NCBI GenBank assembly: GCA_034667465.1
Contig: JAXDJV010000013.1
Coordinates: 188,303 to 252,302, forward strand
DNA length: 64,000 nt
DNA from: Acidobacteriota bacterium
GTDB lineage: Bacteria > Acidobacteriota > Thermoanaerobaculia > Gp7-AA8
Reading direction: 5' to 3'
Shown: positions 38,296-59,946 of the stretch, piece by piece
Layout of the letters: each line of letters begins with the position of its first letter
How positions within the stretch are numbered: the stretch's first letter is position 1
Notes under the pieces: generated by a model
What the model was told of the DNA's origin: nothing
The model's input: the letters and a program-made list of their open reading frames with translations, nothing else
Databases searched by the model: none
Program-made: the position numbers and the translations under genes

Positions 38296-38362
38296 GTGTG
38301 GGGCGAATGATAGGGGAATTGCGGCGGCCGCGGCACTGGAACCGCATACAATCCCTGGCCAG

Positions 38363-38890: not shown

Positions 38891-38892
38891 GA

Positions 38893-39000
38893 CCGCGGGC
38901 GTCCTCGCCCGCTGGACAGGCCGGCGTCTCGCCGGGCTTCAGGGGCGAGGCGAGGGCGAGACGCCCTCGCGTCCAGCGGGCGAAGACGCCCGCGGTCCAA
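38893..39000. repeat. Long GC-rich palindrome (about 28-nt arms, 27/28 paired) between convergent genes
   Basis: ggaccgcgggcgtcctcgcccgctggac ... gtccagcgggcgaagacgcccgcggtcc, with an internal sub-palindrome cgtctcgcc...ggcgagacg. Confidence 0.65.
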
Positions 39001-39005
39001 ACCCT

Positions 39006-40255: not shown

Positions 40256-40259
<4 letters not shown>
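39006..40259 (-). CDS. Sensor histidine kinase (NtrY/NtrB-like partner of the sigma54 regulator)
   Basis: GTG start overlapping the regulator stop (GTGA) with a GGGGGAG Shine-Dalgarno. Two N-terminal TM helices. H-box 'MSHEVNNSVGAV'. HATPase 'DSGSGI...GRGLGL'. Confidence 0.8.
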
Positions 40260-41632
<1,373 letters not shown>

Positions 41633-41636
41633 AAAA

Positions 41637-41730
41637 TCAGTGCAGAGTGCTGAGTGCTGAGTGCTGAGTCGAAAAGCCTTCGTGCCGGCCGGTTTGACTC
41701 AGCACTCTGCACTCAGCACTCAGCACTTTC
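41637..41730. repeat. REP-like palindromic element, copy C
   Basis: agtgcagagtgctgagtgctgagtgctgagtcg ... gactcagcactctgcactcagcactcagcact, between the FtsX permease stop and the regulator start. Confidence 0.7.
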
Positions 41731-44163: not shown

Positions 44164-44829
44164 CTAAGCCACCTGCCGCCCGTCGAACAGACGCACGATC
44201 CGGTTCGTCTGCTTCGCGAAGCGGTCGTCGTGCGTGACCATCACGATCGTCGTCTTGTCGTCGCGGTTGAGCGCGTGGAGGATCTCCATGATCTCGTCGC
44301 CCATCTGCGAATCGAGGTTGCCGGTCGGCTCATCGGCGAGCAGCACGCGCGGACGTCCGACGATCGCGCGAGCGATGGCGACGCGCTGCTGCTGACCGCC
44401 GGAGAGTTGCGTCGGAAAGTGATGCACGCGCGACGCGAGTCCGACGCGATCGAGTGCCGCAAGCGCCAGCCGCCGGCGCTCCGCCGATCCCATCTTTCGA
44501 TACAGCAGCGGGATCTCGACGTTGTCGACGACCGTCAGATCGGGCACGAGGTGGAAGCTCTGAAAGACGAATCCGAGCTTCTCGTTGCGCACCTTCGAGA
44601 GTTTTTTGTCACCCGATTTTCCGAGCGCTTCACCGTCGAGCGCCAGCGTGCCGGAGCTCGGCGCGTCGAGCAGTCCGATCAGATTGAGCAGCGTGCTTTT
44701 GCCGCAGCCCGACGGCCCCATGATCGAGATGAACTCGCCCTGCGTGACGTCGAGATTGATGTTCTGCAGCGCCAGCGTTTCGACGCGTTCGGTCCGGTAC
44801 ACCTTGTCTACGTTTTCCAGTCTGATCAT
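44164..44829 (-). CDS. ABC transporter ATP-binding protein (MacB/LolD-type)
   Basis: Walker A 'GPSGCGKST'. Signature 'LSGGQQQRVAIARA'. Walker B 'LLADEPTGNLD'. H-loop. Confidence 0.9.
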   Translation of the reverse strand: MIRLENVDKVYRTERVETLALQNINLDVTQGEFISIMGPSGCGKSTLLNLIGLLDAPSSGTLALDGEALGKSGDKKLSKVRNEKLGFVFQSFHLVPDLTVVDNVEIPLLYRKMGSAERRRLALAALDRVGLASRVHHFPTQLSGGQQQRVAIARAIVGRPRVLLADEPTGNLDSQMGDEIMEILHALNRDDKTTIVMVTHDDRFAKQTNRIVRLFDGRQVA

Positions 44830-44836
44830 GCTTTCC

Positions 44837-46081
44837 TCACTCGAGCCGGAGCTTCTTCACTCCGGCGTAATCGTTCATGTTCGAGATGACGACCTCGTCG
44901 CCTTCGCGGAGGCCGCCCGTTACTTCAATCGTTTCTTCACCCGCCAGTCCCCACTGCGCCGGGACGCGAACGAGCTCGTCGCCGCGGACGACAAAGACCT
45001 CTTCGCGCTCGCCCTGTCCGAGCGCGCCGCGGCGAACGCGAAGCGCGCCGTTGCGGCGGCCGGTGACGACGAAGACGTCGACGCGCAGGTTGTTGCGCAG
45101 CTTCGCGTGCGACGGTTGCGCGAGATCGACGTAAAACCGCGCCGTCCCGTTCTCGATGCGCGGATCGATGCCGGCGATGGTGCCGTCGACGAGCGTCGAG
45201 TCGTCGAGACGAACGCGCGCCGGCATCCCGGCGGAGAGCTTCGCGACGTGCACGTCGGAGATCGTCGCCACCACCCGAAACGACGAGAGGTCGGCAATGC
45301 GCGCCACCACATCTCCGCGGCGGATCGTGGCGCCGGCGTCCTGCACCGCCCACGTCACGACGCCATCGCGATCGGCGCGCATCATCGCGAGCCCAACCTG
45401 GCGGTTGGACTCGGCCATCTCTTTGCGCAGCGTCCGCAGTTCCATCGCCGAGCCGGCGAGCTGCGCTTCGGCATTGCGTTGCGCACGCGTCAGCGCGTCA
45501 TGAAGCTGCGTCAGCTCGATGTCGGTCTTCTTCACCGCGGTCGCGGCGGCGAGATTTTCCTGCGTGGTGATCAGCCCTTCGCGGCTGAGCTTCGCGTTCT
45601 GTTCCGCTTTGAAAGCGACGATCTCGCGGTCGAGTTTCTTCTGTTCGATCTGCGCGCGCAGCGTCGCGATCGTCTCTTCGACGCGCAGCCGCAGCTGTGC
45701 TTCTTCGCTTTCTTTCTGCGCGACGCGATCGGCGAGCCGCTCGGCATCGAGTCGCGTCGCCGATGTGTCGAGCGCGATCACTTCATCACCGGCGCGAACG
45801 CGATCGCCGGCGCGGCGGACGATGCGCAATACTCGCGCTTCGACCGGACTCGAGACGACCTGCTCGGTCGCTGGCACGACGGTGCCGCTCGCCTGCAGCG
45901 ACGCGTCAACCGCGCCACGCTCGACGCGCGCCGTCTGAATGTTGCGGCGCTTCACCGACGGACGCAGCCACTGCACTGTCGCCGCGAATGAAAACGCGAT
46001 TGCCGCAATTGCGACGATCACCGTCGCCACGCGCCGGATGAGGCGCCGGCGCCGAATGTCTGCTGTGATTTCCCGATCCAT
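44837..46081 (-). CDS. HlyD/MacA-family periplasmic adaptor (efflux membrane fusion protein)
   Basis: N-terminal TM, long coiled-coil, C-terminal beta-barrel/MP domains ('RVRLDDSTLVDGTI'). Confidence 0.8.
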   Translation of the reverse strand: MDREITADIRRRRLIRRVATVIVAIAAIAFSFAATVQWLRPSVKRRNIQTARVERGAVDASLQASGTVVPATEQVVSSPVEARVLRIVRRAGDRVRAGDEVIALDTSATRLDAERLADRVAQKESEEAQLRLRVEETIATLRAQIEQKKLDREIVAFKAEQNAKLSREGLITTQENLAAATAVKKTDIELTQLHDALTRAQRNAEAQLAGSAMELRTLRKEMAESNRQVGLAMMRADRDGVVTWAVQDAGATIRRGDVVARIADLSSFRVVATISDVHVAKLSAGMPARVRLDDSTLVDGTIAGIDPRIENGTARFYVDLAQPSHAKLRNNLRVDVFVVTGRRNGALRVRRGALGQGEREEVFVVRGDELVRVPAQWGLAGEETIEVTGGLREGDEVVISNMNDYAGVKKLRLE

Positions 46082-46215
46082 GCTGAGCGCCGTTCACAGC
46101 GAACGGGCTGCCAGCTTATCTGTACGTATTTTCCATGACTTACGTTGATGCCGGTGTGCGCGACTGAACGCTCCTGTTCGGAAATGAACAGTCGTCGCAC
46201 TACACTGCACCGATC

Positions 46216-47685
46216 ATGAGCGCAATCAGCACATACCCTGACGTCCGCAACTACATCGGTGGAGCATTCGTCGATCCCGGCGAACAGAAACACCTCGATG
46301 TTTTCTCCCCGATCGACGGCCGCGTGATCTCACGCGTTCCACTCTCCGCCTCCGAAGAAGTCGACCGCGCGGTGGCCGCGGCGAAGAAAGCCTTTCCCGC
46401 CTGGTCGGCGACGCCGATCAAGGAGCGCGTGCAGGTGTTCTTCCGCTACAAGACGCTGCTCGAGCAGAACATCGACGAGCTCGCGCGCATCGTCACCGAG
46501 GAGAACGGGAAGATCGACAGCGAAGCGCGCGCCGAGGTGTTGAAGTCGGCGGAGCTGACGGAGTTCGCCTGCTCGCTGCCGCAAATCACCGCCGGCGAAG
46601 TGCTCGAAGTGAGCCGCGGCGTCGAATGCCGCATCGAGCGTTATCCGGTCGGCATCGTGGCGTCGATTACGCCGTTCAACTTCCCGAACATGGTTCCGAA
46701 CTGGACGATCCCGAATGCGCTGGCACTCGGAAACTGCATGATCCTCAAACCGTCCGAGCTCGTGCCGATCAGCGCCGGCCGCATCGCCGAGCTGTTGCGC
46801 GAAGCAGGTCTGCCCGACGGCGTGCTGAACATCGTGCACGGCGGACAGCAGACGGTCGAAGCGATCTGCGATCACCCCGATATCGAAGCGATCACGTTCG
46901 TCGGCTCGACCAAAGTCGCGAAGATCGTCTATCGGCGCGGCACGCAGAATCTGAAGCGCGTCCTCGCACTCGGCGGCGCGAAGAATCACCTCATCGTGAT
47001 GCCGGACGCGGAGCCGGAGATGACGTCATCGAACGTGGTCGCGTCGATGTCCGGCTGCGCCGGTCAGCGTTGCATGGCTGCGTCAGTAATGATGGCGGTC
47101 GGCAAAACCGATCACATCATCGACAAGATGGTGAACATCGTGCGCGCGATGGTTCCCGGCAAGCATCTCGGTCCCGTGATCTCGCGCGCGGCGAAGGAAA
47201 AAATCGAGGCGTACATCACCGAAGCGGAGCAGCAGGGGGCGAAGGTGCTGGTCGATGGACGCGGATACGTGGTCCCGGGCAAGGAAGAGGGTTACTACGT
47301 CGGCCCGACGCTGATCGATCACGTGAAGCCGGAGATGCGCATCGCGCAGGAAGAGGTGTTCGGTCCGGTGATGGTGATCATTCGCGCGGACAACGTCGAT
47401 GAAGCGATCCGCGTGCAAAACAAATCGCCATACGGAAACGCGGCCAGCGTCTTCACGGAGAGCGGCGGCATTGCCCGTCACGTGATGGAGAAGGCCAGCG
47501 CGGGAATGGTCGGCGTGAACGTCGGCGTCCCGGTGCCGCGCGAGCCGTTTTCATTCGGCGGCTGGAACGACTCGAAGTTCGGCGCCGGCGACATCACCGG
47601 CCGCGGCTCGATCGAGTTCCTGACGAAGCCAAAGAAGATGACGACGAAGTGGTCGAAGGAAGCCGGCACGAACTGGATGTCGTAG
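46216..47685 (+). CDS. mmsA: Methylmalonate-semialdehyde dehydrogenase (CoA-acylating), aldehyde dehydrogenase family
   Basis: N-terminus 'NYIGGAFVDPGEQKHLDVFSPIDGRVISRVPLSASEEV' is colinear with MmsA. Catalytic Cys in 'GCAGQRCMAAS'. 'ITPFNFP'. Confidence 0.85.
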   Translation: MSAISTYPDVRNYIGGAFVDPGEQKHLDVFSPIDGRVISRVPLSASEEVDRAVAAAKKAFPAWSATPIKERVQVFFRYKTLLEQNIDELARIVTEENGKIDSEARAEVLKSAELTEFACSLPQITAGEVLEVSRGVECRIERYPVGIVASITPFNFPNMVPNWTIPNALALGNCMILKPSELVPISAGRIAELLREAGLPDGVLNIVHGGQQTVEAICDHPDIEAITFVGSTKVAKIVYRRGTQNLKRVLALGGAKNHLIVMPDAEPEMTSSNVVASMSGCAGQRCMAASVMMAVGKTDHIIDKMVNIVRAMVPGKHLGPVISRAAKEKIEAYITEAEQQGAKVLVDGRGYVVPGKEEGYYVGPTLIDHVKPEMRIAQEEVFGPVMVIIRADNVDEAIRVQNKSPYGNAASVFTESGGIARHVMEKASAGMVGVNVGVPVPREPFSFGGWNDSKFGAGDITGRGSIEFLTKPKKMTTKWSKEAGTNWMS

Positions 47686-47703: not shown

Positions 47704-50700
47704 CTACAAGCCGCGCTCCATCACGATTTCTTTCGAACTGCCGCCGTCGACCTGACGGAATCCCGCCTGGCGATAGAGCTGCGTCAGATTGTTGATCTCC
47801 TTCCGCCGTGACGGCAGATCGTCGATCTTCACGCGCGCCGGTCCGGTGAGCAGTTCGAGAATGTTGTTGCCGATGCGTGCGCCCCAGAAGCTCGGCGGCA
47901 CGAAGAGGTCACCATCTTTCCACTCCAGCACCGTCCCGTTTTTCTGCGCGAACAGTAGACCGACGCTGACGGTTCGATTCTCCACGGTGATCTCGTAGCT
48001 GCGGATGTCCGCGGCCGAATCGAGTGCGGCCGCCTTGCCGGGATACATCGCCTTCCATAGTTCGAACGCAACTCCCGCGCGGGTCGTGAGGGGGACGAGT
48101 TGCGCGCCGAGACGTTTCTTGTTTCGCGTCGACGACAGATCGAAGCGCTGTTCGATGAAGCGCACCATCTGCGGGTTGTACATCGGCGCAAAGAAGGGCC
48201 AGAGCTCGCGGAAAGCCTGCGTCGTCGTCCAGCGACCAAACTCGTTGAGCCAGCCGAGGTTCAGCGGATGCGTCGAGTAGCGTTCCATCTGACAGCCGAT
48301 GTAGACGTCTTCCATCAGCTGGATGACCTGCGTGAAGAGCGGAACGACATGCGCGAATTTTTCCGGCGTCAGTTTGTGTGTCAGCGGCGGCGTGTCCGCA
48401 TCCCACTTCAACTCCGGGAAGAGGTCGCGAACGAGTGACTCATCGGCATCGATGAGCTGCCGCTGCAATTGCTCGAGCTGGTTCGTGCGTCCGAGGAGTT
48501 GCGCTTCGAGATCGGCGGGAACCGGGAGCCACTTCCAGCGGGCATCGCCGAAAAGCTCGCTCGTGTCAGTCTCGGCGGCGCCGGCATCAGCGACGAATTC
48601 GAATGCGGCGCGTGCCGCATGCAGGCCGAGGCGACGATATGACTCCCACTGCTTCTCGTCGTAAAACTGATCGCCCGTCGATTCGTGCGGGAACTGCTCG
48701 TTGCGCGCTCGGTACTGCAGGATGTCGCCCGGCTCGTCGCCGACGAGCGTTGGCTTGAATAGCAGCAGAATGCCGCGATCGCCGTCCGGGTATTGGATGT
48801 CGCCGACCGCGAGGTGCTGCCGCGAGTAGCGTTTATCGTCCGGCTTGAGTACGCCGAGATCCATCTCGATCTCGACGCCGAAGTCCTCGCGTGCGCGGCG
48901 CAGCGCGTTGCCGACGTCGTCGAATGCGACGTCGGGATCGGCGCCGCAATCAGAGACGATGATGTACTTGCAGCGACGGCGCAGCAGTTCGTAGAGACCG
49001 AGGTTTTCGAAGTGGCCGCCGTCAGACAGATGCACCGACTGCGATTCGGGACCGGAGTAGGTGCGACTGAACATTTCCGCGAGGAGATCGGTGCCGGGCA
49101 GGCTCCACGCTTTCGTAAAGCGGTACCAGTAGCCGAGACGGAGATTCAGCGATGCCATCAGGAACGTCGCCGAGGGACCGATGTCCATTGAAACGGAACC
49201 CATGTTCGAGTTGAACGCTGCCGCCGATGCGGTCATCGCCGAAGCTAGCGAGACCTGAGTCGTCGCGTCTTTCCATTGCTGAAAGCGGTTCGCCAGCGTG
49301 ATTCCGAACGGCGACAACGTTGCGCTGCGGCCACCGCGGCTGAGGTTCGCGAGGTGATTGCCGGAGAGGTCGTTCGCCGTGCAGCAGACAAGATGAATCG
49401 GCGCCGAGGTCCTGAGATCCTGCATCAGGATGTCGTCGCCTGGCCGTTGTGTTGACTGCCGATTTTCGGTGGCGCAGCTCGCCTTTGTATTCGATGCGCC
49501 GAGGTAGGAACGCGCCAGCCGCGAGCGATAGAGCGCGTGCATCCCGATCTCGTTCGGGTTGTACAGCAGCAGCGCCATGACGACGATCGCGGCCGCGATC
49601 ATGGCTGAGATGAATGACCGGTAGCTGAGATCCGTGAATACCAGGAATGCCGCGGCGAGCGCGAATGCGATGAGCGCCGCGATCGCGAGCAACGGCTGCG
49701 CATACCGCTGCAGCACCTTGCCGACGAATCCTGTTTTCGCGCGGTTCGGCTGACGCGACAGAAACTTCTGGAGAACCGCGTAGAGCGCCGTCGCGACGCC
49801 ACCTGCGCCGGCGGTCACGAACTCCCGCTTCGTGTAACCGAACAGCATGAACGCGACGATCAGAAACGCGATCATGCCCATCCAGAACACGGAGAGACCG
49901 AGCAGCCTTGCGATGACACGATCGAACGCCGCGCGATAGGAACCGATCGTCGGATCGGAGATGAAAACTGAAGACCACGTCCGGACAAAGATGAGGGCGA
50001 CCATCGCGGCCAGCCAGCCAATCGCGGGCGCGAGAAAAGTCGGCCACCTCATCTCGGGACCTGGAAACTCTCCGAAATCCGCCACCCCATGCTTTCCGGC
50101 GACGTATCCGGTGACGCTGAGCGCCACGGCGATCGCGATCGCGCCGGCAGTCGCATACAGCCAGAGGTAATAAGGCTCGCCGCCATGGCGTTCCACGGCC
50201 GCCGTCTTCAACTCGTACGCCGTCAATACAAAGATCGTCGAGATCGCCATGATTGCGAGCATGGCCTGCACGTGAAGCGCCGCCCCCACGGAAATGATTG
50301 CGGGAAGCGGCAGCGCGGAGTTGAAGCCGAGGCTCGCGCCACTCACCACGACGGCGAACCAAACTACGAGCGTGAGCACCGAGAGGCCGACGATGATCGT
50401 CGGGAGGATCGCGGAGATGGCGCCGCCGAAAAACTGCCACGTTTCGAGCTCGAAGAGTCCCCACCGCGGCGCGAGAAATCGACTGAACTCTCGAAGGTGA
50501 CGAATCGCTTCGTGTTCGGATCGCGCCGCTTCCGCGTCGGCCGCGGTCGGGAAGGGCACCGGTCCGGGGCGGCCTTCCGACGTCGTCGCAGGTTCCGGGT
50601 GACGCGCGCGCCACGCACTCCAGAAGCCGCCAACATAGCCGCCGCCTGACACGGTGCTGACGTAATGAAAATGCCGAAGCACGTCGCGATCAGCGAGTCC

Positions 50701-50928
50701 CTGCAGCAGACCGAGGTTGAACGTCGCACTGCGGATCCCGCCGCCGGAGAGCGCGAGGCCTGCGAGATCGGCCGGCACTCCAACCGCAAACGGCTCGGCG
50801 CCGGGATCCAGCGGCGGTCGCTCCGTCGCATCCCCATCAGCGAGCGAGCCGCTGAAAGCAACCTTCGGCTCGCCCGCGACCTTGAGACTCTCCAACTCCC
50901 TCCGGAACGCCGCCTTGAATGTCGTCAT
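47704..50928 (-). CDS. Large (1074 aa) membrane-embedded patatin-like phospholipase family protein with a long C-terminal domain of unknown function
   Basis: N-lobe 'LSGGGIRSA' (GGGxR oxyanion hole) and 'STVSGGG' nucleophile-elbow-like motif. About 10-12 TM helices. C-lobe 'HLSDGGHFENLG' (catalytic Asp, DGG). Then about 400 aa with no recognised motif. Confidence 0.65.
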   Translation of the reverse strand: MTTFKAAFRRELESLKVAGEPKVAFSGSLADGDATERPPLDPGAEPFAVGVPADLAGLALSGGGIRSATFNLGLLQGLADRDVLRHFHYVSTVSGGGYVGGFWSAWRARHPEPATTSEGRPGPVPFPTAADAEAARSEHEAIRHLREFSRFLAPRWGLFELETWQFFGGAISAILPTIIVGLSVLTLVVWFAVVVSGASLGFNSALPLPAIISVGAALHVQAMLAIMAISTIFVLTAYELKTAAVERHGGEPYYLWLYATAGAIAIAVALSVTGYVAGKHGVADFGEFPGPEMRWPTFLAPAIGWLAAMVALIFVRTWSSVFISDPTIGSYRAAFDRVIARLLGLSVFWMGMIAFLIVAFMLFGYTKREFVTAGAGGVATALYAVLQKFLSRQPNRAKTGFVGKVLQRYAQPLLAIAALIAFALAAAFLVFTDLSYRSFISAMIAAAIVVMALLLYNPNEIGMHALYRSRLARSYLGASNTKASCATENRQSTQRPGDDILMQDLRTSAPIHLVCCTANDLSGNHLANLSRGGRSATLSPFGITLANRFQQWKDATTQVSLASAMTASAAAFNSNMGSVSMDIGPSATFLMASLNLRLGYWYRFTKAWSLPGTDLLAEMFSRTYSGPESQSVHLSDGGHFENLGLYELLRRRCKYIIVSDCGADPDVAFDDVGNALRRAREDFGVEIEMDLGVLKPDDKRYSRQHLAVGDIQYPDGDRGILLLFKPTLVGDEPGDILQYRARNEQFPHESTGDQFYDEKQWESYRRLGLHAARAAFEFVADAGAAETDTSELFGDARWKWLPVPADLEAQLLGRTNQLEQLQRQLIDADESLVRDLFPELKWDADTPPLTHKLTPEKFAHVVPLFTQVIQLMEDVYIGCQMERYSTHPLNLGWLNEFGRWTTTQAFRELWPFFAPMYNPQMVRFIEQRFDLSSTRNKKRLGAQLVPLTTRAGVAFELWKAMYPGKAAALDSAADIRSYEITVENRTVSVGLLFAQKNGTVLEWKDGDLFVPPSFWGARIGNNILELLTGPARVKIDDLPSRRKEINNLTQLYRQAGFRQVDGGSSKEIVMERGL

Positions 50929-50971
50929 CCGACCACTCCCCTTTCAGGGAGTGATCGGAGACGGCAAATCC

Positions 50972-53900
50972 CTACCGCGAGTTCGTTGCGGCGACTTTGT
51001 TCGGGAACGCGGGCCGCTTCATCGGCGTCGCCGGCGTCGCGGGCAACTTCTTCATGACCTCCGCGATCGCGCGATCGAGCTGCGGGTCGCGGCCGGCGAT
51101 GACATCGGCCGGCGTTTGCTCCACTTCAATATCGGGCGCGACGCCTTCGTTCTCGACCTTCCATCCCTCCTCGGTCCAGAAGCCGAAGTTCGGGGCGGTG
51201 ATGTTGCCGCCGTCCATCAGATCGGGGAAGCCGAGGATGCCGACGAGACCGCCCCATGTGCGGCGGCCGATGAGCGGGCCGAGATTGAGCTTGCGGAACA
51301 TCCACGGCAGCAGATCGCCGCCGGAGCCGGCGTTCTCGTCGATCAGCATCACCTTCGGACCCTGAATCGATGCGAGCGGCGTCTTCATGTCGGCGCCGTA
51401 GCGCGTCGCCCAGTTGGCGATGAACGGACGATTGAGAATGTCGATGTAGTAATCGGGGAACGAGCCGCCGCCGTTGTAGCGCTCATCGAGAATGGCCGCT
51501 TCGCGATTCGCCTGCGGGAAGAAGTAGCGGCGGAACGACTCGTATCCGGCCGTGCTCGTGTTCGGCAGATAGACGTACGCGACGCGGCCGTTCGTCTTCT
51601 CGGTCACGTAGCGGATGTTGTTCTCGATCCACGCGCGGTTGCGGAGATTCGCTTCGTTCTCGATCGGCACGACCTTCACGACGCGCGAGCCGCTGCCGTC
51701 GGCATTCGGTCCGACCGTGATCTCGACGATGCGGCCGGCGGTGCGCTCGAAACGCGCGTAGAGATTGTCCGGATAGCGGAGATCCTTGCCGTCGACGGCG
51801 AGCAGATACTCACCTTCGCGGACGTCGACACCGGGTTCGGTCAGCGGCGCGCGCAGTTCCGGATTCCAGTTCAGGCCGCCGTAAACCTTCGCGAAGCGAT
51901 AGCGGTTGTTGTCGATCTTGTAGTCGGCGCCGAGGAGACCGCCCGGGATCGTGTCGACATTCGCGAGCGACTCGCCGCCGGTCAGATACGAATGGCCGAC
52001 CGAAAGCTCGCTGGCCATCGCGCGCATCAGACGATTCAGATCCTGGCGAACGGAGACGTCGCCGAGCATCGCCGCGTACTTGTCGTGCATCGCCTTCCAG
52101 TCGACGCCGTGCATGGCCGGGTCGTAGAAGTAATCGCGATTGATGCGCCACGCTTCGTCGAAGATCTGTTTCCATTCGACGGTCGGCTCGATCTTCACCG
52201 CGATCTGATCGACCGGCAGCGGACGCTTCGAGATATCAACCTTGTCGCCCATGTCGGCGATCGACCAGCGCATGCCGGCTTTGACGAGGATTCGTTTGCC
52301 GTCGCGCGAGACTTCGAAGCTGTCGCACTTCTCGAGCAGCGTGTCTTCCTTGCGCTTCGTCAGATCGAAACGCATCAGGCTCGTGTCGAACTTGTCGTCG
52401 TGAATTTCCGGGCTGGTCGCTTTCAGATAGAGCAGCTGTCCGGTTTTCGCGATGGCGAGATCGGAGTAGATCGCCTCCGGCACCGGCAGCGCCTGAATGC
52501 GCTGCGAGAGGCGCTCGAAGTCGATGACGACTTTCACGTCCTTCGACTCTTCCTTCTTTTCGTCGGCTTTCTTTTTGTCGTCCGATTTATCGGCGGCTTC
52601 GTCGGCTTTCTTCGCCGCTTCCTCGTCGCTCTCTTTTGCCAGCGGCGAGACGACGCCCTTCGGCAGGACGACCATGTAGATCGCGCTCGTGGCGCGGAGA
52701 TCGGTGTTCGAGAGCGCGAACCAGTCTTCGACCGGACCGGCGTTTGTCGACGCGAGGAAGTAGAGGTATTTGCCGTTCGGATCGAAGACCGGCGACATGG
52801 CGTCGCTGTAGCCGTCCGTCACCGGCGATGACGTCTTCGTGGCCACCGACCAGACGTGGACGGTGTGGAAGAAGTTCTGCGAGTTCGTCGTGTAGGCGAG
52901 CCACTTCGAATCGGGCGACCAGTTGTGATCGAGGTCGCGGAACGGACCGTACATCGTGTTCTGCGAGATCTTCGTCGACGTTCCCGACGCGACGTCGAGC
53001 ACGTAGACCGAGCGGGAGTTGTCGAGATAGCTGATCAGCTTTCCGTCAGGCGACCACTTCGGATTCTCGTAAAAGCCGGCGCCGTTCAGTTTGATCTTTC
53101 GAACGTCGCCGCGGCCGTCCTGCGGCGCGATGCGCAGCTCGTACTCGCCGGTTTCATCGGTGAACCAGGCGATCGATTTGCCGTCCGGCGACCAGGCCGG
53201 CGAGCGGTCGTTTGCGCCGGGCGACTGCGTCAGATTGCGGTCGTCGCCTTTCTCGGCCGGCAGCGTGATGATCTCGCCGCGATACTCGAGGACGGCGCGC
53301 TGTCCGGCCGGCGAGAGCGATGCGTTGCGGATGTACTTCGCCCCCTTCACGAAACGCGGGCGCGTTTCGACGAGGTCGGCGGCGACGCCGATCTTCAGGC
53401 GCGTGTCGCGCGCGGCGGACGGTTCATACAGATGAAGGTAACCGGCCTGTTCGAAGATCAGCTTTCCGGCGCCGCCGTTCACCGCCGTCACCGGGAAGTC
53501 GGAGTACTTCGTCAACTGCTTTACTTCTTTCGTGCCGCGGTCGAACGAGTAGAGGTTGAACTCGCCGTTGCGATCGGAGCGGAAGTAGAGCGTGTCGCCG
53601 ATGAAGATCGGATCGGTGTCGTTGCTGCGCGCGGCCGGCTGCGGCACCTGTTCGACGGCGTTCGTGGCGACGTCGAAGAGGAAGATGCGCGCGGTGGCGC
53701 CGCCGCGGTAACGCTTCCACTGCGCGAACGCTTCGCGCAGCGGGACGAACGCGATCGTCTTTCCGTCCGGCGAGTACGCGGCCGTCGACGCATTCGGAAT
53801 CGGCAGCTTCGTGACGGCGCCGCCGCCGACCGGCACGGTGAAGAGCTGCTGGTAGCGGCGCGTGTAAACCTCGCGCGGCGACGTGAAGAGAATCGACTTG

Positions 53901-54259
53901 CCGTCCGGTGTGAAACCGAGCACGGCGTCGGCGTCGGGATGCCACGTCAGACGCTTCGGCACGCCGCCGGCGGCCGGCATCACGTAGACATCGACGTTCC
54001 CTTCATACGAACCGCTGAACGCGAGCAGCGATCCGTCGGGCGAATAGCGCGGCAGCGTTTCGACGCCGGGATGCGACGTCAATCGCCGCACGCCCGAGCC
54101 GTCGAGGTTCGCGGTCCAGATATCGTTCGCATATCCGAACGCGATGCCGTTCGCGCCGACCGTCGGCGTCGTGAGCAGCCGCGTGTCGGTGGTGTTGACG
54201 GCGAGAAGCGGAAGTGCGGCGGCGAGCAGGAAGAGCAGGCAAAGGCGTGCCGATTTCAT
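50972..54259 (-). CDS. Tricorn protease homolog (S41 family): two beta-propellers, PDZ and C-terminal peptidase domain
   Basis: Internal start 'MKSARLCLLFLLAAALPLLA' (signal peptide). TolB/WD40-like repeats ('YSPDGSLLAF', 'WSPDGK...'). C-terminal S41 region 'GGSFPDYYIDILNRPFIANWATRYG...MLIDENAGSGGD'. Confidence 0.8.
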   Translation of the reverse strand: MKSARLCLLFLLAAALPLLAVNTTDTRLLTTPTVGANGIAFGYANDIWTANLDGSGVRRLTSHPGVETLPRYSPDGSLLAFSGSYEGNVDVYVMPAAGGVPKRLTWHPDADAVLGFTPDGKSILFTSPREVYTRRYQQLFTVPVGGGAVTKLPIPNASTAAYSPDGKTIAFVPLREAFAQWKRYRGGATARIFLFDVATNAVEQVPQPAARSNDTDPIFIGDTLYFRSDRNGEFNLYSFDRGTKEVKQLTKYSDFPVTAVNGGAGKLIFEQAGYLHLYEPSAARDTRLKIGVAADLVETRPRFVKGAKYIRNASLSPAGQRAVLEYRGEIITLPAEKGDDRNLTQSPGANDRSPAWSPDGKSIAWFTDETGEYELRIAPQDGRGDVRKIKLNGAGFYENPKWSPDGKLISYLDNSRSVYVLDVASGTSTKISQNTMYGPFRDLDHNWSPDSKWLAYTTNSQNFFHTVHVWSVATKTSSPVTDGYSDAMSPVFDPNGKYLYFLASTNAGPVEDWFALSNTDLRATSAIYMVVLPKGVVSPLAKESDEEAAKKADEAADKSDDKKKADEKKEESKDVKVVIDFERLSQRIQALPVPEAIYSDLAIAKTGQLLYLKATSPEIHDDKFDTSLMRFDLTKRKEDTLLEKCDSFEVSRDGKRILVKAGMRWSIADMGDKVDISKRPLPVDQIAVKIEPTVEWKQIFDEAWRINRDYFYDPAMHGVDWKAMHDKYAAMLGDVSVRQDLNRLMRAMASELSVGHSYLTGGESLANVDTIPGGLLGADYKIDNNRYRFAKVYGGLNWNPELRAPLTEPGVDVREGEYLLAVDGKDLRYPDNLYARFERTAGRIVEITVGPNADGSGSRVVKVVPIENEANLRNRAWIENNIRYVTEKTNGRVAYVYLPNTSTAGYESFRRYFFPQANREAAILDERYNGGGSFPDYYIDILNRPFIANWATRYGADMKTPLASIQGPKVMLIDENAGSGGDLLPWMFRKLNLGPLIGRRTWGGLVGILGFPDLMDGGNITAPNFGFWTEEGWKVENEGVAPDIEVEQTPADVIAGRDPQLDRAIAEVMKKLPATPATPMKRPAFPNKVAATNSR

Positions 54260-54552
54260 GCGCGGGAGTGTAACTCCGGCATCGTGATGCGTTAGCGTTT
54301 GGTCATCAATGCGACACAGGATTGTCATCGCGGTCGCTGTCGTGCGCGCCGCCGAGCGCGCACGCCGCGCCGGTGATTCTGATGGTACGCGGCAGCGGGG
54401 AGCGCGGCGACAAAGCGATCGCGCGTATGTACGAGAGCAAGGTCACTCGCGCTCGCACAACGCGTGCGCGGCGATCCAAAAACGGAGTCACGTCCGATGC
54501 CTCTGTACGGCCACACCTTCGGCAACGCGCCGAATGCGCGCCGCGTCGCCGC

Positions 54553-55231
54553 TCATCGCAGAGGAGGCAGAGCCTCCAGCCTCTTTAACCATCCGTCGAA
54601 GTGCAGGCACTCCGCACGAATGCGGTCTACGCCGATGCATTTCGCAACGCCACTCCCGTGCAGCACCTTGTCGTACGAGGGCTGCAACTTCTTCAGTCGC
54701 GCGGAAGGGTGCGTGTCTGGCCCGTCGTTAATGTGTTCAGGCGAATCTGCCGCGTCGCGCACGCGCTGCAGTTCATCGACAAAAACGAGACCAATCCGAC
54801 CGCACAGTCGCGAAGCAAGCCACATCCGAGAAAAGCAGTGCCTCGAACTCGTAGGGCTGGACATGCGCGATGAAGCGGTCCGCGCGTCGATCGCTCACTT
54901 TCGCCACGGCTGCGCCAAAAACAGCTTCGATCACACGGCACCGGCTAATCGCATCGTTCTCTAGACGGCCTTCAGCGATGCCCGGGAAGTCGGCTTGCAA
55001 ACCATACAGATCGAACAGTGTCGTCACGTATGTGTCTGCGCGTTCGCGCAATGTGTTCCGAAGATGGCGCAGCACGCGCTCAGGCGTCAAAGCGCCGCCG
55101 ACCGCTCCTTGCGACGTGGCGATCAAGCGCGGCTGTAAACTGATATCGCGGTCCGCCAGCCTGGGCGCGAGCACGTCTCGAATGAACGTCTCTTCGGTCT
55201 GGCCTTCGCCGACGACCATGACCTCAATCAC
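54553..55231 (-). pseudogene. DUF4276-family protein gene, frameshifted
   Basis: Frame A (55231..54773) gives 'MIEVMVVGEGQTEETF...YEFEALLFSD', the DUF4276 N-terminal region. The C-terminal consensus 'PEHINDGPDTHPSARLKKLQPSYDKVLHGSGVAKCIGVDRIRAECLHFDGWLKRLEAL' continues in another frame (ORF 54553..54864). The shift lies between about 54795 and 54845. Confidence 0.6.
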
Positions 55232-56313
55232 CTCGTCGGTCTCCCACCGACGACGTTCATCTTCCAGAGTTCACCGAGCGCGTAGTCTTCCAACCATTCC
55301 TTCAGGTGCTCGGCGTCGAGTCGCCGGAAGACAGATGCGCCCTCGTGTCGCTCGGCGATGATCACATCTTCGGGCGCCAACTGATTAACCAGTTCGACCG
55401 ACTGCGTGGAGACGACGATCTGCTTTCGTTCCGACGCCTGTCGAAGCAATCCTCCGAGAACCGCCAGCGCGTACGGGTGCAAACCAAGCTCCGGCTCATC
55501 GACGATGATCGTGTCGGGCTGCAGGTTCGTCGGCTGCAGCAACAATGTCGCCAGACAGATGAACCGCAACGTACCGTCAGACAACTGCAGTGGTCCACGT
55601 GGCGTATCCCGGTCATCGACTTCCAGCCATTCCAACTCGATCTTTTCGCCGGGATCACTGCGCTCGACGAAGTCACCGAAGAACGGTGCAACCATCCGCA
55701 CGGTTTCGATGATCGAGCTATAGCTGCTCTTGTGCTTCTCCCGAAGCATCCGGAGAAACGGCGCCAGATTCGACGCATCCGGCTTCAATCGAAGATTGTC
55801 GCGCACCGCTTGCGCCAAACGAACGGGCGCGCTGGCGCTCGTATCGTGGAAATGGAAGACGCGCCAGCTGCGAACTGCCGGCAACACGTAGCTCGCGATC
55901 ATGTCGCCTTCAACTGTCGGCAACCTCGCCTCGGTGTGTCCGCTGCCGAGCGATCGATTCGAGTTCCCGTAGTTCCCCGCGAAATAGGTTTCCTCGCGCG
56001 AGAACGCGAGGTGGTTGGCGGCCGGGATCAGGCTGAAGTGATAGCCATTCTTCGCGAAGTACAGCTCAATGTCGATCTCGCGTGTTCGCTTTCGTCCCCC
56101 GAACAGGAGCGCGTCCGGTCCATATTCGCTCTTCACGTAGAGCTGCAGCCGGCCGTCCATCATCTCGGCCAGCATGCGAAAGAGGCTGATGAAGTTCGTT
56201 TTTCCGGCGCCGTTGGCCCCGATCAGGACGTTTAATTGCGACGCAAGCTGGAAGTTATCCAGCTCCCGGATCGACTTGAACCCTCGCACGCTCAGGCGCG
56301 CCAAACGTGTCAC
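55228..56313 (-). CDS. AAA family ATPase (AAA_15/AAA_21, OLD/SMC-like ABC ATPase), partner of DUF4276
   Basis: 'LNVLIGANGAGKTNFISLFRML' Walker A. Q-loop. 'TIIVDEPELGLHP' Walker B/D-loop. Stop overlaps the DUF4276 start (ATGA). Confidence 0.8.
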   Translation of the reverse strand: MTRLARLSVRGFKSIRELDNFQLASQLNVLIGANGAGKTNFISLFRMLAEMMDGRLQLYVKSEYGPDALLFGGRKRTREIDIELYFAKNGYHFSLIPAANHLAFSREETYFAGNYGNSNRSLGSGHTEARLPTVEGDMIASYVLPAVRSWRVFHFHDTSASAPVRLAQAVRDNLRLKPDASNLAPFLRMLREKHKSSYSSIIETVRMVAPFFGDFVERSDPGEKIELEWLEVDDRDTPRGPLQLSDGTLRFICLATLLLQPTNLQPDTIIVDEPELGLHPYALAVLGGLLRQASERKQIVVSTQSVELVNQLAPEDVIIAERHEGASVFRRLDAEHLKEWLEDYALGELWKMNVVGGRPTR

Positions 56314-56712
56314 GGCTGCATTCCTCGCAGCTCCGCAGTGATCTCACCGCAAAGTCCTCAGCTCAACATTAACACCTGAGCGCGACGAAACCGAGGTTAC
56401 CTGACCGACTACGAGCTCAGGCGCGGTCGGAGCCATACCACGCCGACCGAAGCCCTCTTACTTCGTCGTCTCGTGCGGCAGGACTCATCGCTGAGGCGCA
56501 ACCGCCGCTAACAGAGTTGAAAGAGCCAACCACATCGCAGACGTCCACGACATCGGTGCTTGAAGAGAAGCCGCATCGCGAGATCAACGAAGATCTCGAA
56601 AAACCGTCGGCATACACGAAGGCCGTCGACGCCTTCCTGCAGTCGCTCAGGCATTAATCGCGGCGTCCTCGAACATCAGTCGCAGCACGAGCGCGGCGGC
56701 CACGGCATGACC

Positions 56713-58209
56713 CTACGCCGTCGCCTCTGCCGCCACCGGCTTCGCGATCTTCATCAGCGCGTAATAGACGACGAGCGCCACGCCGAAGCCGACGAACCAC
56801 GCGTAGTCGTACAACGTCTTCATCGACGGCACGAATCTCCCGATCCACGCGAAGAAACAGGCGATCACCGTCGCGACGACCGCGCGCCAGTTCCATCCCT
56901 TCGCGTACCGATACTCGCCGGTTTCGCGATAGAGATCGGGCAGCACGAGGTTCTTGTCGCGGATCAGCCAGTAATCGGCGATGAGCACGCCGGCGATCGA
57001 GCCGAGACCTCCGGAGTAAGCGACCAGCCAGTCGAAGATGTAGCCGGAAGGATCGGCGATCAGGCGCCAGGGCTGCATGATGATGCCGAGGATGCCGGTG
57101 ATCAGACCGCCGGTCCGGAATGAGATCCATTTCGGGAACGCGTTCGCGAAATCGTTCGCGGGCGAGACCACATTCGCGGCGATGTTCACCGACAGTGTCG
57201 CGACCACGATCGTGAACATCGAGATTGCGATCACCCACACCTGCGTGAAGTGGCCGACGAGCACGATCGGATCCCACAGCTCGCTCATCTTTGACTGCGG
57301 ATAGATGACGACGGCGGCGGAGGTGATGATCACTCCCATCGCGGCGAAGAGCGTCATCGTCGACGGCAGCGCGACCGACTGTCCGATGACCTGCTCGCGC
57401 TGGCTCCGCCCGAAGCGGGTGAAGTCAGGCATGTTCAGCGACAGCGTCGCCCAGAAACCGATCATGCCGGTCAGTGACGGAATGAAGACCGGCCTGAACT
57501 CCGCCCACGTCCGAAGTTTGCCGGGATGATCGATGAGATATCCGAGTCCGCCGGCGCGCCAGACCGCCCACGCGAGGAGCAGCGCCGTCATGACGAGCAC
57601 GAATGGCGCGGCCCAGTTCTCGACGCGGCGCAGCAGATCCATGCCGCGATAGATGATGTAGATGTTCATCCCCCAGAAGAGCATGAATGAGAGCCATTGC
57701 GTCGTGGGGTGACCGCCGAATGAACCGAGGAGGTTCGTCCAGCCGGGGATGATCGCGCCGAAAAATGTTTGCAGCGCCTGGCCGCCGATCCACGCCTGAA
57801 TGCCGAACCAGCCGCAGGCGACGATCGCCCGCATCAGCGCCGGCAGATTCGAGCCGTACGTGCCGTAGGCGGCGCGCGCGAAGACGGGAAACGGGATGCC
57901 GTACTTCGTGCCGGGATGCGAGTTGAGGAGGATCGGGATGAGCACGATCACGTTGCCGAGGAGGATGGTGAGGAGCGCCTGCCACCAGTTCATGCCTGAG
58001 CTGATGAGAGCCGACGACATCATGTACGTCGGGATGCAGTGCGCCATCGAGATCCAGAGCGCGGCGTAGTTGTACGTAGTCCAGTCGCGTTTCGCGACCG
58101 GCACCGGCGCGAGGTCTTCGCTGTAGAGCGGACTCGATTCGATCGAGGAGCGGTCGCGCAATTCGACGCGGCCATCGTCGTGCTGGATCACTTCGGCTGT
58201 GTTCGGCAT
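56713..58209 (-). CDS. NCS1 family nucleobase:cation symporter (cytosine/purine/uracil/thiamine/allantoin permease family)
   Basis: Internal ATG 'MPNTAEVIQHDDGRVELRDRSSIESSPLYSEDLAPVPVAKRDWTTYNYAALWISMAH' is the characteristic NCS1 N-terminus. 12 TM helices. The upstream part of the listed ORF is Arg-rich artefact. Confidence 0.8.
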   Translation of the reverse strand: MPNTAEVIQHDDGRVELRDRSSIESSPLYSEDLAPVPVAKRDWTTYNYAALWISMAHCIPTYMMSSALISSGMNWWQALLTILLGNVIVLIPILLNSHPGTKYGIPFPVFARAAYGTYGSNLPALMRAIVACGWFGIQAWIGGQALQTFFGAIIPGWTNLLGSFGGHPTTQWLSFMLFWGMNIYIIYRGMDLLRRVENWAAPFVLVMTALLLAWAVWRAGGLGYLIDHPGKLRTWAEFRPVFIPSLTGMIGFWATLSLNMPDFTRFGRSQREQVIGQSVALPSTMTLFAAMGVIITSAAVVIYPQSKMSELWDPIVLVGHFTQVWVIAISMFTIVVATLSVNIAANVVSPANDFANAFPKWISFRTGGLITGILGIIMQPWRLIADPSGYIFDWLVAYSGGLGSIAGVLIADYWLIRDKNLVLPDLYRETGEYRYAKGWNWRAVVATVIACFFAWIGRFVPSMKTLYDYAWFVGFGVALVVYYALMKIAKPVAAEATA

Positions 58210-58251
58210 GGCGGCGATTGTAGCGCGGCGCTGAACGTACAATCGCCGTTC

Positions 58252-59946
58252 ATGAAACGACTGCTGCTCGCCGCTCTGATCACCCTCGCCGCCTCGCTTC
58301 CCGCATTCGCCGCGTCGAAAAAAACGCCGGCGAAACCGTTCTCCGTCGTCGAAGCTTCGATCTCCGACATGCAGGCGGCGCTGCGCGAAGGCCGCGTCAC
58401 ATCGCGCGAGCTCGTGCAGCAATACCTCACGCGCATCGCGACGTATGACGCGAAGCTGCACGCGGTCATCACCGTCAATCCTCGCGCGCTCGAAGAGGCT
58501 GACGAACGCGATCGCGAGCGCGCCTCCGGGCAGATTCGCGGTCCGCTGCACGGCATTCCGGTCGCGCTGAAAGACAACATTCATACGACAGACATGCCGA
58601 CCACCGGCGGCGCGCTGGCGTTCGCCGAGCTCGTGCCGCCGTATGAAGCGACGATCACGAAGAACCTCCGCGACGCCGGCGCAATCATCATCGCCAAGAC
58701 GCAGATGACCGAGCTCGCGAACTGGGTGGCCGGCAATCCGTCGATGCCGAACAACTACAACTCGCTGAACGGCTATGGATTCAATCCGTACGATCCGCGC
58801 CGCGATCCGCGCGAGGCGACGAACGACGGACGTCCCGTGCTCAACACCGGCGGCTCGAGCTCCGGCGCCGGAACCGCGGCGAGTTTCTGGGCGGCGAACG
58901 TCGGGACGGAAACGTCGGGCTCGATTCTCAGTCCGTCGAATCAGAACATGCTCGCCGCGGTGAAGCCGACCGTCGGCCGCATCTCGCGCTACGGCGTCAT
59001 TCCGATCACCGCCGATCAGGACACGCCCGGCCCGATGGCGAAGTTCGTCACCGACGCCGCGATCATGCTCGGCGCACTTGAAAGCGCATCGCCCGATCCG
59101 AACGATCCGGCGACGAAGAACTGCACGCCGGTGCGCGACTACACGCAGTTCCTGAAGAAGGACGGACTGAAAGGCGCGCGCATCGGCATTCCGCGCGCCG
59201 GCTACTACGACAAGATCACGCTGCCAGGCACCGAGAAGCCGCGCGGCGGTCTGAATCCCGACCAGACGAAAGCGATCAACGAGGCGATCGAAGTGCTGAA
59301 GCAGCAGGGCGCGGTGATCGTCGACCCGGCTGACATTCCGTCGGTCGTCGACAAGGATCCGAAGAACAACTTCTGGCTCTGGGGCGTCTGCGGCGACATG
59401 GACGACGTCAAAGAGAAGAAGTGCTCCGTCGATCTCGCGTACGGAATGGAGCGCGATTTCAACGCGTGGCTGAAATCACTCGGCGAGAAAGCGCCGGTGA
59501 AGTCGCTGACCGATCTGCGCGAATGGAACACGAATCATTCGAAGAGCGGCGCGATCAAGTACGGGCAGTCACTGCTCGACATCTCCGACGCGATGGATCA
59601 GGAGCTGTTCCGCGCGCGCTACGAATCGGATCGCGCGAACGATCTTCGTCTCTCCGCGACGCATGGAATCGATGAGGTGATGAAGGCGCAGAAGCTCGAT
59701 GCGCTGCTGTTTCCCGGACCGGGCGGTGCGTCGATCGCAGCACGTCCCGGCTATCCAACTGTCATCGTACCGTTCGCAACGATTCCGAATGCGCCGACGC
59801 CGGCGTTCCCCGATTCGTTCAAAGCGAAACCGCAGCCGTACGGCGTCAGCTTCACCGGAATGGCCTGCAGCGAGCCGACGCTGCTGCGGCTCGCGTACGC
59901 GTTCGAACAGGCGACGAAGCGCCGCGTCGCGCCGCAGCTACCGTAA
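58252..59946 (+). CDS. Secreted amidase (amidase signature family)
   Basis: Signal peptide 'MKRLLLAALITLAASLPAFAA'. 'GGSSSGAGTAAS' AS-family Ser-cisSer-Lys core. 'GIPVALKDNIHT'. Confidence 0.85.
   Translation: MKRLLLAALITLAASLPAFAASKKTPAKPFSVVEASISDMQAALREGRVTSRELVQQYLTRIATYDAKLHAVITVNPRALEEADERDRERASGQIRGPLHGIPVALKDNIHTTDMPTTGGALAFAELVPPYEATITKNLRDAGAIIIAKTQMTELANWVAGNPSMPNNYNSLNGYGFNPYDPRRDPREATNDGRPVLNTGGSSSGAGTAASFWAANVGTETSGSILSPSNQNMLAAVKPTVGRISRYGVIPITADQDTPGPMAKFVTDAAIMLGALESASPDPNDPATKNCTPVRDYTQFLKKDGLKGARIGIPRAGYYDKITLPGTEKPRGGLNPDQTKAINEAIEVLKQQGAVIVDPADIPSVVDKDPKNNFWLWGVCGDMDDVKEKKCSVDLAYGMERDFNAWLKSLGEKAPVKSLTDLREWNTNHSKSGAIKYGQSLLDISDAMDQELFRARYESDRANDLRLSATHGIDEVMKAQKLDALLFPGPGGASIAARPGYPTVIVPFATIPNAPTPAFPDSFKAKPQPYGVSFTGMACSEPTLLRLAYAFEQATKRRVAPQLP

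What the first reader, a model, noticed from the sequence alone, without database searches (positions are those of the whole stretch)
54300..56712. Two-gene AAA-ATPase + DUF4276 cassette (AbiL/PARIS/Septu-like architecture) with a frameshifted DUF4276 partner, bracketed by about 0.5 kb of gene-free DNA
An SMC/OLD-like ABC ATPase (55228..56313) is translationally coupled (ATGA) to a DUF4276 gene, whose sequence continues in a second frame after about 54800. The N-terminal 'EGQTEETF...EFEALLFSD' is in one frame and the C-terminal 'LQPSYDKVLHGSGVAKCIGVDRIRAECLHFDGWL' is in another. ATPase plus small effector pairs of this shape are a recurring anti-phage design (AbiLi/AbiLii as I recall, PARIS AriA/AriB, Septu). 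The pair sits between housekeeping genes, and about 400-500 bp on each side (54260..54552, 56314..56712) has no convincing gene, consistent with an inserted or decaying accessory island. The frameshift suggests either inactivation of a costly abortive-infection module or an assembly indel.
Basis: partly seen in the sequence, partly recalled or inferred. Interest (0 to 1): 0.7.

Follow-up and report, generated by a model that had tools for sequence, protein, structure and literature searches.

The report
Frameshifted HEC-01 defence cassette inside broken esterase gene
This is an ordinary member of a catalogued candidate anti-phage gene pair (PADLOC "HEC-01": an ABC ATPase plus a small Toprim-like nuclease) that landed inside an esterase gene of a soil Acidobacteriota genome, and whose nuclease gene is now broken by one extra T.

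Summary
A 361-aa ABC ATPase gene (55228..56313, minus strand) overlaps by 4 nt (GTGA, not ATGA) a DUF4276 gene that is split between two frames.

The pair is not AbiL, PARIS or Septu. It matches PADLOC's HEC-01A (E 1e-138, full length) and HEC-01B models.

The split comes from exactly one extra base in a T5 run (54781-54785). Five homologous DNAs each show a single 1-nt gap there. Removing one T restores a 225-aa protein that aligns without gaps to 225-226-aa homologues. Both genes otherwise keep almost all family-conserved residues, so the lesion is recent or an artefact. Records from NCBI, JGI and Logan all carry it.

The "gene-free" flanks hold two collinear relics of one alpha/beta-hydrolase gene, which is intact at the same spot in a related metagenome contig. 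So the cassette was inserted into that gene. A 92-94% identical relative lacks the whole 2.4-kb segment through a larger deletion.

The repaired DUF4276 models confidently (pLDDT 92.7) as an OLD-like Toprim fold.

Verdict: a new member of a known, poorly characterised candidate defence family, probably inactivated. Interest is low to moderate.

The parts
55228..56313 (-). HEC-01A: 361-aa ABC (SMC/OLD-like, AAA_21) ATPase, apparently intact. Walker A is GANGAGKT, signature LSDGT, Walker B IIVDEPE.
   Evidence: PADLOC PDLC04175 HEC-01A E 1.1e-138, residues 2-359 on profile 4-362/363. Pfam AAA_21 E 8.5e-27. 135 of 137 columns that are >=95% conserved in 119 homologues are kept; the two deviations are conservative, S39T and I300V.
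54773..55231 (-). HEC-01B / DUF4276, first frame: residues 1-150 of the Toprim-like effector, then 2 out-of-frame codons and TGA (54773-54775). The GTG start overlaps the ATPase stop.
   Evidence: Pfam DUF4276 E 1.2e-24, profile 2-119/192. PADLOC HEC-01B E 1e-40. Invariant E9, D74, E128 and E130 are present.
54553..54780 (-). HEC-01B / DUF4276, second frame: the C-terminal 75 codons plus stop (VDELQRV...PEHINDG..THPSARL...C.HF..W...). No start codon of its own in a homologous position.
   Evidence: Pfam DUF4276 E 4.5e-20, profile 121-192/192. PADLOC HEC-01B E 1.6e-26.
54781..54785 (-). Frameshift site: T5 run (CGTTTTTG on the minus strand) holding one extra base. With T4 the codons read CGT TTT GTC = R-F-V.
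   Evidence: Five homologous DNAs (L083, L084, L086, L090, L091) each have one 1-nt gap in this run. The three complete homologous genes need no other gap. The repaired 225-aa protein aligns without gaps across the site: SDWSRFVDELQ against SDWSRFIDELQ.
55228..55231 (-). GTGA start/stop overlap between the ATPase and the DUF4276 gene (translational coupling).
   Evidence: Sequence. The same 4-nt overlap is seen in homologous loci L083, L084, L086, L087 and L091.
54346..54441 (+). Relic of the N-terminal part (residues 85-117, APVI.MV.G.G.RGDKA) of an alpha/beta-hydrolase (BD-FAE/Abhydrolase_3) gene that the cassette interrupts.
   Evidence: tblastn with the L105 308-aa hydrolase: 19/33 identical, E 3e-7. 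blastn L105 2681-2757 = window 54419-54346, E 2e-8. Pfam assignment of the L105 protein.
56400..56657 (+). Relic of the C-terminal part (residues about 223-305 plus stop; ...HREINEDLEKPSAYTKAVDAFLQSLRH*) of the same hydrolase gene, collinear with the N-terminal relic.
   Evidence: tblastn E 6e-10. blastn L105 2048-2198 = window 56697-56551, 72% identity, E 2e-20.
56668..56697 (-). Probable relic of the last codons (AALVLRLMFE) of a 256-aa gene that lies between the transporter and the hydrolase in L105. Most of that gene is deleted here.
   Evidence: 9/10 identical to the L105 g256 C-terminus. Weak alone (E 0.16), but it is syntenic and lies inside the E 2e-20 DNA match.
54353..56736 (.). Segment absent from the closest relative (L003, MAG Acidobacteria RYN_27): cassette plus hydrolase relics. 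The breakpoint on the tricorn side is uncertain by about 30 bp.
   Evidence: L003 3705-6924 = window 59953-56737 and L003 6921-10271 = window 54352-51002, at 92-94% identity.

Best explanation
This is a horizontally acquired two-gene HEC-01-type cassette: an ABC ATPase 'A' translationally coupled to a DUF4276 Toprim-like nuclease 'B'. It inserted, in antisense orientation, into an esterase gene between an NCS1 transporter gene and a tricorn-protease gene of a soil Acidobacteriota genome.

The mechanism is inferred from related ABC-ATPase/Toprim systems (PARIS, OLD, Gabija). The ATPase would act as the infection sensor and hold or license the Toprim nuclease. The nuclease would then cut nucleic acid (DNA or tRNA; the substrate is unknown) to stop phage replication, possibly at the cost of the cell.

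In this genome the nuclease gene carries one extra T in a T4 run. Translation therefore stops after residue 150 plus two out-of-frame codons and loses the near-invariant C-terminal helical part. The system is most likely a recently inactivated relic whose sensor ATPase is still intact.

Shown: family identity, the one-base lesion, insertion into a pre-existing gene, the Toprim-like fold. Inferred: defence function, sensor/effector roles, loss of function.
For: - Family: PADLOC HEC-01A E 1e-138 full length; HEC-01B E 1e-40 and 1.6e-26 for the two fragments. Pfam AAA_21 and DUF4276.
- Lesion: the gene is 679 nt, and five homologous DNAs have one 1-nt gap in the T5 run. The repaired protein is 225 aa, 76% identical to the best full-length homologue (81% to a 5'-truncated copy), with no gap at the repaired site.
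- No wider decay: 135/137 (ATPase) and 66/67 (DUF4276) highly conserved columns are kept.
- The same truncated 148-aa product is on record from NCBI, JGI and Logan. The largest contig listed (363,234 bp) differs in length from the JGI contig (361,465 bp). The JGI contig and a 5,750-bp Logan contig of run SRR24887482 are 100% identical to the window.
- Insertion: the cassette is flanked by two collinear relics of one hydrolase gene, which is intact at the same locus in L105. GC3 is 0.757 for the ATPase and 0.667 for the first DUF4276 frame, against 0.85-0.87 in the neighbours. Homologous pairs sit in unrelated housekeeping contexts.
- Literature: HEC-01 is described as ABC ATPase plus TOPRIM. 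One HEC-01 representative protected E. coli against at least one of T4, T5 and T7 (PMC12881386). DUF4276 is placed in the Toprim superfamily and is related to Mad4 (PMC12065111). PARIS mechanism in PMC11464382.
Against: - The HEC-01 representative tested by its discoverers gave no protection against any phage in their panel. Defence function for the family therefore rests on one positive heterologous assay and on guilt by association.
- No read-level data were available, so a consensus error at the T5 run is not excluded.
- The three records may derive from one read set.
- No promoter-like site was found upstream of the cassette.
- No mobile-element hallmarks (repeats, integrase, tRNA) explain how it inserted.
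Confidence: 0.8

Rival explanations
1. The frameshift is a sequencing or assembly artefact. The real genome has T4, an intact 225-aa DUF4276 gene and a functional HEC-01 system.
For: The source is a metagenome-assembled genome. The lesion is a single base in a homopolymer. Both genes are otherwise perfectly conserved, as expected if nothing is broken. The records may share one read set.
Against: NCBI, JGI and Logan records give the same truncated product. The JGI and Logan contigs are 100% identical to the window across the site, and the largest contig on record differs in length from the JGI one. A 5-nt homopolymer is short for systematic consensus errors (general knowledge). No intact allele above 81% identity exists among 5.8 billion protein clusters.
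Confidence: 0.2
2. The T5 run is a functional switch. Either ribosomal +1 frameshifting or reversible slippage keeps the toxic nuclease at low level or phase-variable.
For: A U5 run allows tRNA-Phe to re-pair in the +1 frame (inference from the sequence). The stop follows only two codons later. Everything else in both genes is intact.
Against: None of five homologous DNAs and none of about 117 homologous proteins has the extra base; all are single-frame, 224-250 aa. So the feature is not conserved. T5 is short for phase variation or transcriptional slippage (general knowledge).
Confidence: 0.03
3. The pair is not an anti-phage system. It is a selfish addiction (toxin-antitoxin-like) module, or a DNA-repair or housekeeping ATPase-nuclease pair.
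For: HEC-01 gave no protection in the discoverers' assay. Here and in five homologous loci the pair sits alone among housekeeping genes, not in a defence island.
Against: HEC-01 was found repeatedly embedded in Hma defence systems. One representative protected against at least one of T4, T5 and T7. Its domain pair is that of PARIS, OLD, Gabija, AbiL and MADS3-4. Patchy, context-free distribution and easy loss (this locus; L003; the 5'-truncated copy in L090) fit accessory defence genes.
Confidence: 0.1
4. It is a PARIS, AbiL or Septu system.
For: The ATPase gives secondary hits to AriA (89 bits), AbiLi (77 bits) and the PtuA N-terminus.
Against: HEC-01A scores 460 bits over the full length. 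The effector hits only HEC-01B and Pfam DUF4276, with no DUF4435/AriB, RloB/AbiLii or HNH/PtuB match at E <= 0.1. PtuA scores 24.5 bits against a cut-off of 500.
Confidence: 0.02

Closest known systems
HEC-01 (Hma-embedded candidate 01; PADLOC-DB; Payne et al., bioRxiv 10.1101/2024.01.29.577857)
   Same: Both proteins match the HEC-01A and HEC-01B models, the ATPase over its full length. It has the same two-gene order and an ABC ATPase plus TOPRIM-like DUF4276.
   Different: It is not embedded in an Hma system; it stands alone inside a broken esterase gene. The B gene is frameshifted. The host is an uncultured Acidobacteriota.
PARIS (AriA ABC ATPase + AriB DUF4435 Toprim nuclease; PMC11464382)
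   Different: The effector family is DUF4276, not DUF4435. The ATPase is 361 aa, smaller than the 55 kDa AriA. The AriA models score far below HEC-01A. The trigger and the substrate are unknown here.
OLD-family nucleases and Gabija GajA (ATPase fused to Toprim)
   Different: Here the ATPase and the nuclease are separate, translationally coupled genes. The nuclease is only 225 aa.
MADS MAD3-MAD4 and AbiL (AbiLi + RloB-type AbiLii)
   Same: These are AAA_15/21 ABC ATPases paired with Toprim-superfamily effectors. Mad4 is a DUF4276 homologue.
   Different: NCBIfam MAD3 scores 90.9 bits against a cut-off of 420, over the C-terminal half only. The called genes within about 6 kb on either side include no methyltransferase or other MADS gene. 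There is no RloB match.

Membership tests
HEC-01 (PADLOC) | A protein matches a HEC-01A ABC-ATPase model | tested here: met
   PDLC04175 E 1.1e-138, 460 bits, residues 2-359 on profile 4-362/363.
HEC-01 (PADLOC) | B protein matches a HEC-01B (DUF4276/TOPRIM) model | tested here: met
   PDLC04188: E 9.9e-41 on profile 12-153/230 for frame 1 and E 1.6e-26 on profile 156-226/230 for frame 2. Pfam DUF4276 in both fragments.
HEC-01 (PADLOC) | A and B adjacent on the same strand, in the order A then B | tested here: met
   4-nt GTGA overlap at 55228-55231. Homologous loci have the same arrangement.
HEC-01 (PADLOC) | Both genes intact | tested here: not met
   The B gene has one extra base in the T5 run 54781-54785, with a premature TGA at 54773-54775.
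HEC-01 (PADLOC) | ABC ATPase motifs and TOPRIM-like fold with conserved acidic residues | tested here: met
HEC-01 (PADLOC) | Protects against phage | not testable with these tools
   Literature is mixed: no protection, and protection against at least one of T4, T5 and T7.
PARIS | AriB effector with DUF4435 Toprim domain | tested here: not met
   No AriB or DUF4435 hit for either fragment at E <= 0.1.
PARIS | AriA-type ATPase | tested here: not met
   AriA models score 89 and 46 bits against 460 bits for HEC-01A.
AbiL | AbiLii effector of the RloB family | tested here: not met
   No RloB or AbiLii hit. AbiLi scores only 76.8 bits.
Septu | PtuA ATPase plus PtuB HNH nuclease | tested here: not met
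   NCBIfam PtuA scores 24.5 bits against a cut-off of 500, over the N-terminal 40 residues only. No HNH protein lies next to it.
MADS (MAD3-MAD4) | MAD3 equivalog ATPase within a methylation-associated multi-gene locus | tested here: not met
   NF047739 scores 90.9 bits against a cut-off of 420. The neighbours are a transporter, a protease and an amidase.
OLD family nucleases (classes 1 and 2) | ATPase and Toprim domains in one polypeptide | tested here: not met
   They are two separate genes. Only the fold resembles OLD.

The most novel reading that the evidence does not exclude
The extra T is not damage but a control device. A short slippery U5 tract would let only rare +1 frameshifting, or reversible T4/T5 slippage in the population, produce the full-length Toprim nuclease. 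That would keep a potentially self-toxic HEC-01 effector nearly silent while the sensor ATPase is made normally.
Probability: 0.03. Interest if true: 0.5.

Novelty: new member of a known kind. Interest (0 to 1): 0.25.

Why it matters
The finding matters little on its own. It adds one well-documented natural example of how a small, integrase-free defence cassette enters a genome and is then lost. The cassette inserted into a dispensable esterase gene. Its effector gene was hit by a single-base lesion while the sensor ATPase remains intact. In a sister lineage the whole region is deleted.

The HEC-01 family is abundant: more than 8,000 close ATPase homologues and more than 1,200 DUF4276 partners were found. 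It has no established mechanism, and the published phage assays disagree. The highly conserved sequences and the confident Toprim-like model collected here could help choose representatives for biochemical work.

Tried and rejected
- Flanking direct or inverted repeats, tRNA genes and Rfam families around the cassette: nothing meaningful.
- Promoter and terminator scan: one internal promoter-like hit and one plus-strand terminator-like hairpin, both at chance level.
- Pfam on six-frame translations of the flanks: no hits. The relics were recognised only after a syntenic relative (L105) supplied the intact hydrolase.
- Further hydrolase relics in 54420-54640 and 56250-56480: not significant, z < 3.
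- DNA homology between this cassette's flanks and those of six homologous cassettes: it stops 12-23 nt upstream of the ATPase start and before the DUF4276 stop, so no shared mobile-element ends exist.
- Metagenome scan for a T4 or T5 allele with exact flanks: 0 hits, which is uninformative because even the source contig was not found.
- L003 as a pristine empty site: rejected. Its transporter tail (KPRD*) is derived and the deletion is larger than the cassette. The window's tail PVAAEATA resembles PRGAAAVEVA in L105.
- Foldseek against the PDB and profile-versus-PDB sequence search for DUF4276: no significant match.
- Of 80 transporter-bearing metagenome loci, only L105 keeps the transporter-tricorn synteny, and none has HEC-01 there.

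Full report
**What is in the sequence.** On the minus strand, a 361-aa ORF (55228..56313) is followed by a DUF4276 reading frame that starts at GTG 55231. The first DUF4276 frame ends at TGA 54773-54775, and a second frame continues to 54553. Pfam puts AAA_21 (E 8.5e-27) and AAA_15 on the ATPase. It puts DUF4276 profile positions 2-119 on the first frame and 121-192 on the second.

**Which family.** PADLOC-DB gives a full-length match of the ATPase to HEC-01A (PDLC04175, E 1.1e-138, 460 bits). Both DUF4276 fragments match HEC-01B (E 1e-40 and 1.6e-26). AriA, AbiLi, mad3, GajA and Old are only secondary hits of 40-90 bits. NCBIfam MAD3 scores 90.9 bits against a cut-off of 420, and PtuA 24.5 against 500. 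The effector fragments hit nothing but HEC-01B and DUF4276. So the pair belongs to the HEC-01 candidate system, not to PARIS, AbiL or Septu.

HEC-01 was defined by Payne et al. as an ABC ATPase plus a TOPRIM-like protein often embedded in Hma systems. Their representative protected against none of the phages tested. A later study reported that one HEC-01 representative protected E. coli B against at least one of T4, T5 and T7. DUF4276 has been assigned to the Toprim superfamily and related to Mad4. The PARIS paper groups AbiL and MADS3-4 with the ABC-ATPase/TOPRIM systems.

**The frameshift.** The gene from 55231 to 54553 is 679 nt, which is 1 mod 3. DNA alignments with five homologous genes (L083, L084, L086, L090, L091) each show a single 1-nt gap inside the window's T5 run (54781-54785; CGTTTTTG on the minus strand). 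The three complete genes need no other gap. Deleting one T gives a 225-aa protein. It is 76% identical to the best full-length homologue, and 81% identical to a copy that proved to be 5'-truncated. The alignment has no gap at the repaired site: SDWSRFVDELQRV against SDWSRFIDELQQV.

About 117 homologues are single-frame proteins of 224-250 aa. The break is therefore not a conserved recoding signal. Apart from this base, nothing looks decayed. The ATPase keeps 135 of 137 columns that are at least 95% conserved (the exceptions are S39T and I300V). The repaired DUF4276 keeps 66 of 67. The lesion is thus very recent or artefactual.

**Is the frameshift real?** The truncated 148-aa product is on record from NCBI (MAG Acidobacteriota bacterium, locus tag QOI24_2154), JGI and Logan. 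The largest contig listed for it is 363,234 bp, which differs in length from the JGI contig. The JGI contig Ga0467057_0000012 (361,465 bp) and a 5,750-bp Logan contig of run SRR24887482 are both 100% identical to the window across the site. No intact allele closer than 81% exists in the 5.8-billion-cluster protein collection. An exact-flank scan of the metagenome collection found nothing, not even the source contig. I put about 0.8 on a real mutation. Only read pile-ups can settle it.

**Insertion and the gene-free flanks.** The closest genome (L003, MAG Acidobacteria RYN_27, 92-94% nt identity) joins window 56737 directly to 54352, so it lacks 54353..56736. This is not a pristine empty site.

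A more distant syntenic contig, L105, has a transporter 90% and a tricorn protease 84% identical in protein. Between the transporter and the tricorn gene it carries a 256-aa gene and, on the opposite strand, a 308-aa alpha/beta-hydrolase of the BD-FAE/Abhydrolase_3 families. The window's two "empty" flanks are collinear relics of that hydrolase on the plus strand:
- Residues 85-117 lie at 54346-54441 (tblastn E 3e-7; blastn E 2e-8).
- Residues about 223-305 plus the stop lie at 56400-56657 (tblastn E 6e-10; blastn E 2e-20).
- The last codons of the 256-aa gene lie at 56668-56697.

The cassette therefore sits antisense inside a broken esterase gene, which fixes the polarity: it was inserted. 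L003 carries a larger deletion that also clipped the transporter's last codons. Its tail KPRD* is derived, whereas the window's PVAAEATA resembles L105's PRGAAAVEVA.

Composition agrees with foreign origin. GC3 is 0.757 for the ATPase and 0.667 for the first DUF4276 frame, against 0.85-0.87 in the neighbours. Homologous pairs in other contigs sit alone in unrelated housekeeping contexts, and homology ends within about 20 nt of the genes. No integrase, repeats or tRNA are present. The means of insertion remains unknown.

By analogy with PARIS, OLD and Gabija, the ATPase is inferred to sense infection and license the Toprim nuclease. The substrate is unknown. The frameshift removes residues 151-225, which contain the near-invariant PEH.N.G..THPS.RL and C.HF..W motifs. 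The effector is therefore most likely dead while the sensor survives, a plausible order of loss for a potentially toxic effector (inference).

**Verdict.** This is a genuine but ordinary member of an already catalogued candidate defence family, probably freshly pseudogenised and lying in a decaying variable spot.

Noticed in passing
window 47704..50928 (-): A 1074-aa gene with a weak N-terminal patatin match (E 6.8e-6) lies just downstream of the tricorn gene. It is absent from both L003 (758 bp there instead) and L005 (150 bp). This makes a second lineage-specific insertion flanking the same protease gene. PADLOC gives no hit.
   Followed up: partly
L105 1316..3009: A related metagenome contig keeps an intact 256-aa gene with no Pfam match and a 308-aa BD-FAE/Abhydrolase_3 esterase between the transporter and the tricorn gene. 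The same intergenic spot thus exists in three states: intact, cassette-disrupted and deleted.
   Followed up: yes
L090 1..908: The closest DUF4276 relative (82% nt identity) is itself a 5'-truncated copy. Homology starts at about codon 30, so the catalytic EGxTEE motif and the ATPase gene are missing. Similar GGTCA(C/G)ACCTTCGTT motifs lie on both sides. It could be another decayed HEC-01 or a chimeric short contig.
   Followed up: partly
window 56713..58584 (-) and 50972..54328 (-): The mechanical ORFs are over-extended. By JGI gene calls and homology, the transporter is 498 aa (start about 58209) and the tricorn protease 1095 aa (start 54259, with a signal-peptide-like MKSARLCLLFLLAAALPLLA). 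Long antisense ORFs (for example 50717..52831 + and 52856..54295 +) look like high-GC artefacts.
   Followed up: partly
window 38301..46233: About 7.9 kb present in the window and mostly in L003 has no counterpart in the Thermoanaerobaculia contig L005, which joins window 46234 to 38300 across 230 bp. This is another variable segment in the neighbourhood.
   Followed up: no
window 54273..54345 / L003 6929..7000: The 72-73 bp just upstream of the tricorn gene are shared by the window and L003. They do not align to the 283 bp found there in L105 (hydrolase 5' end plus spacer). This suggests the esterase had already lost its 5' end before the two lineages split.
   Followed up: partly
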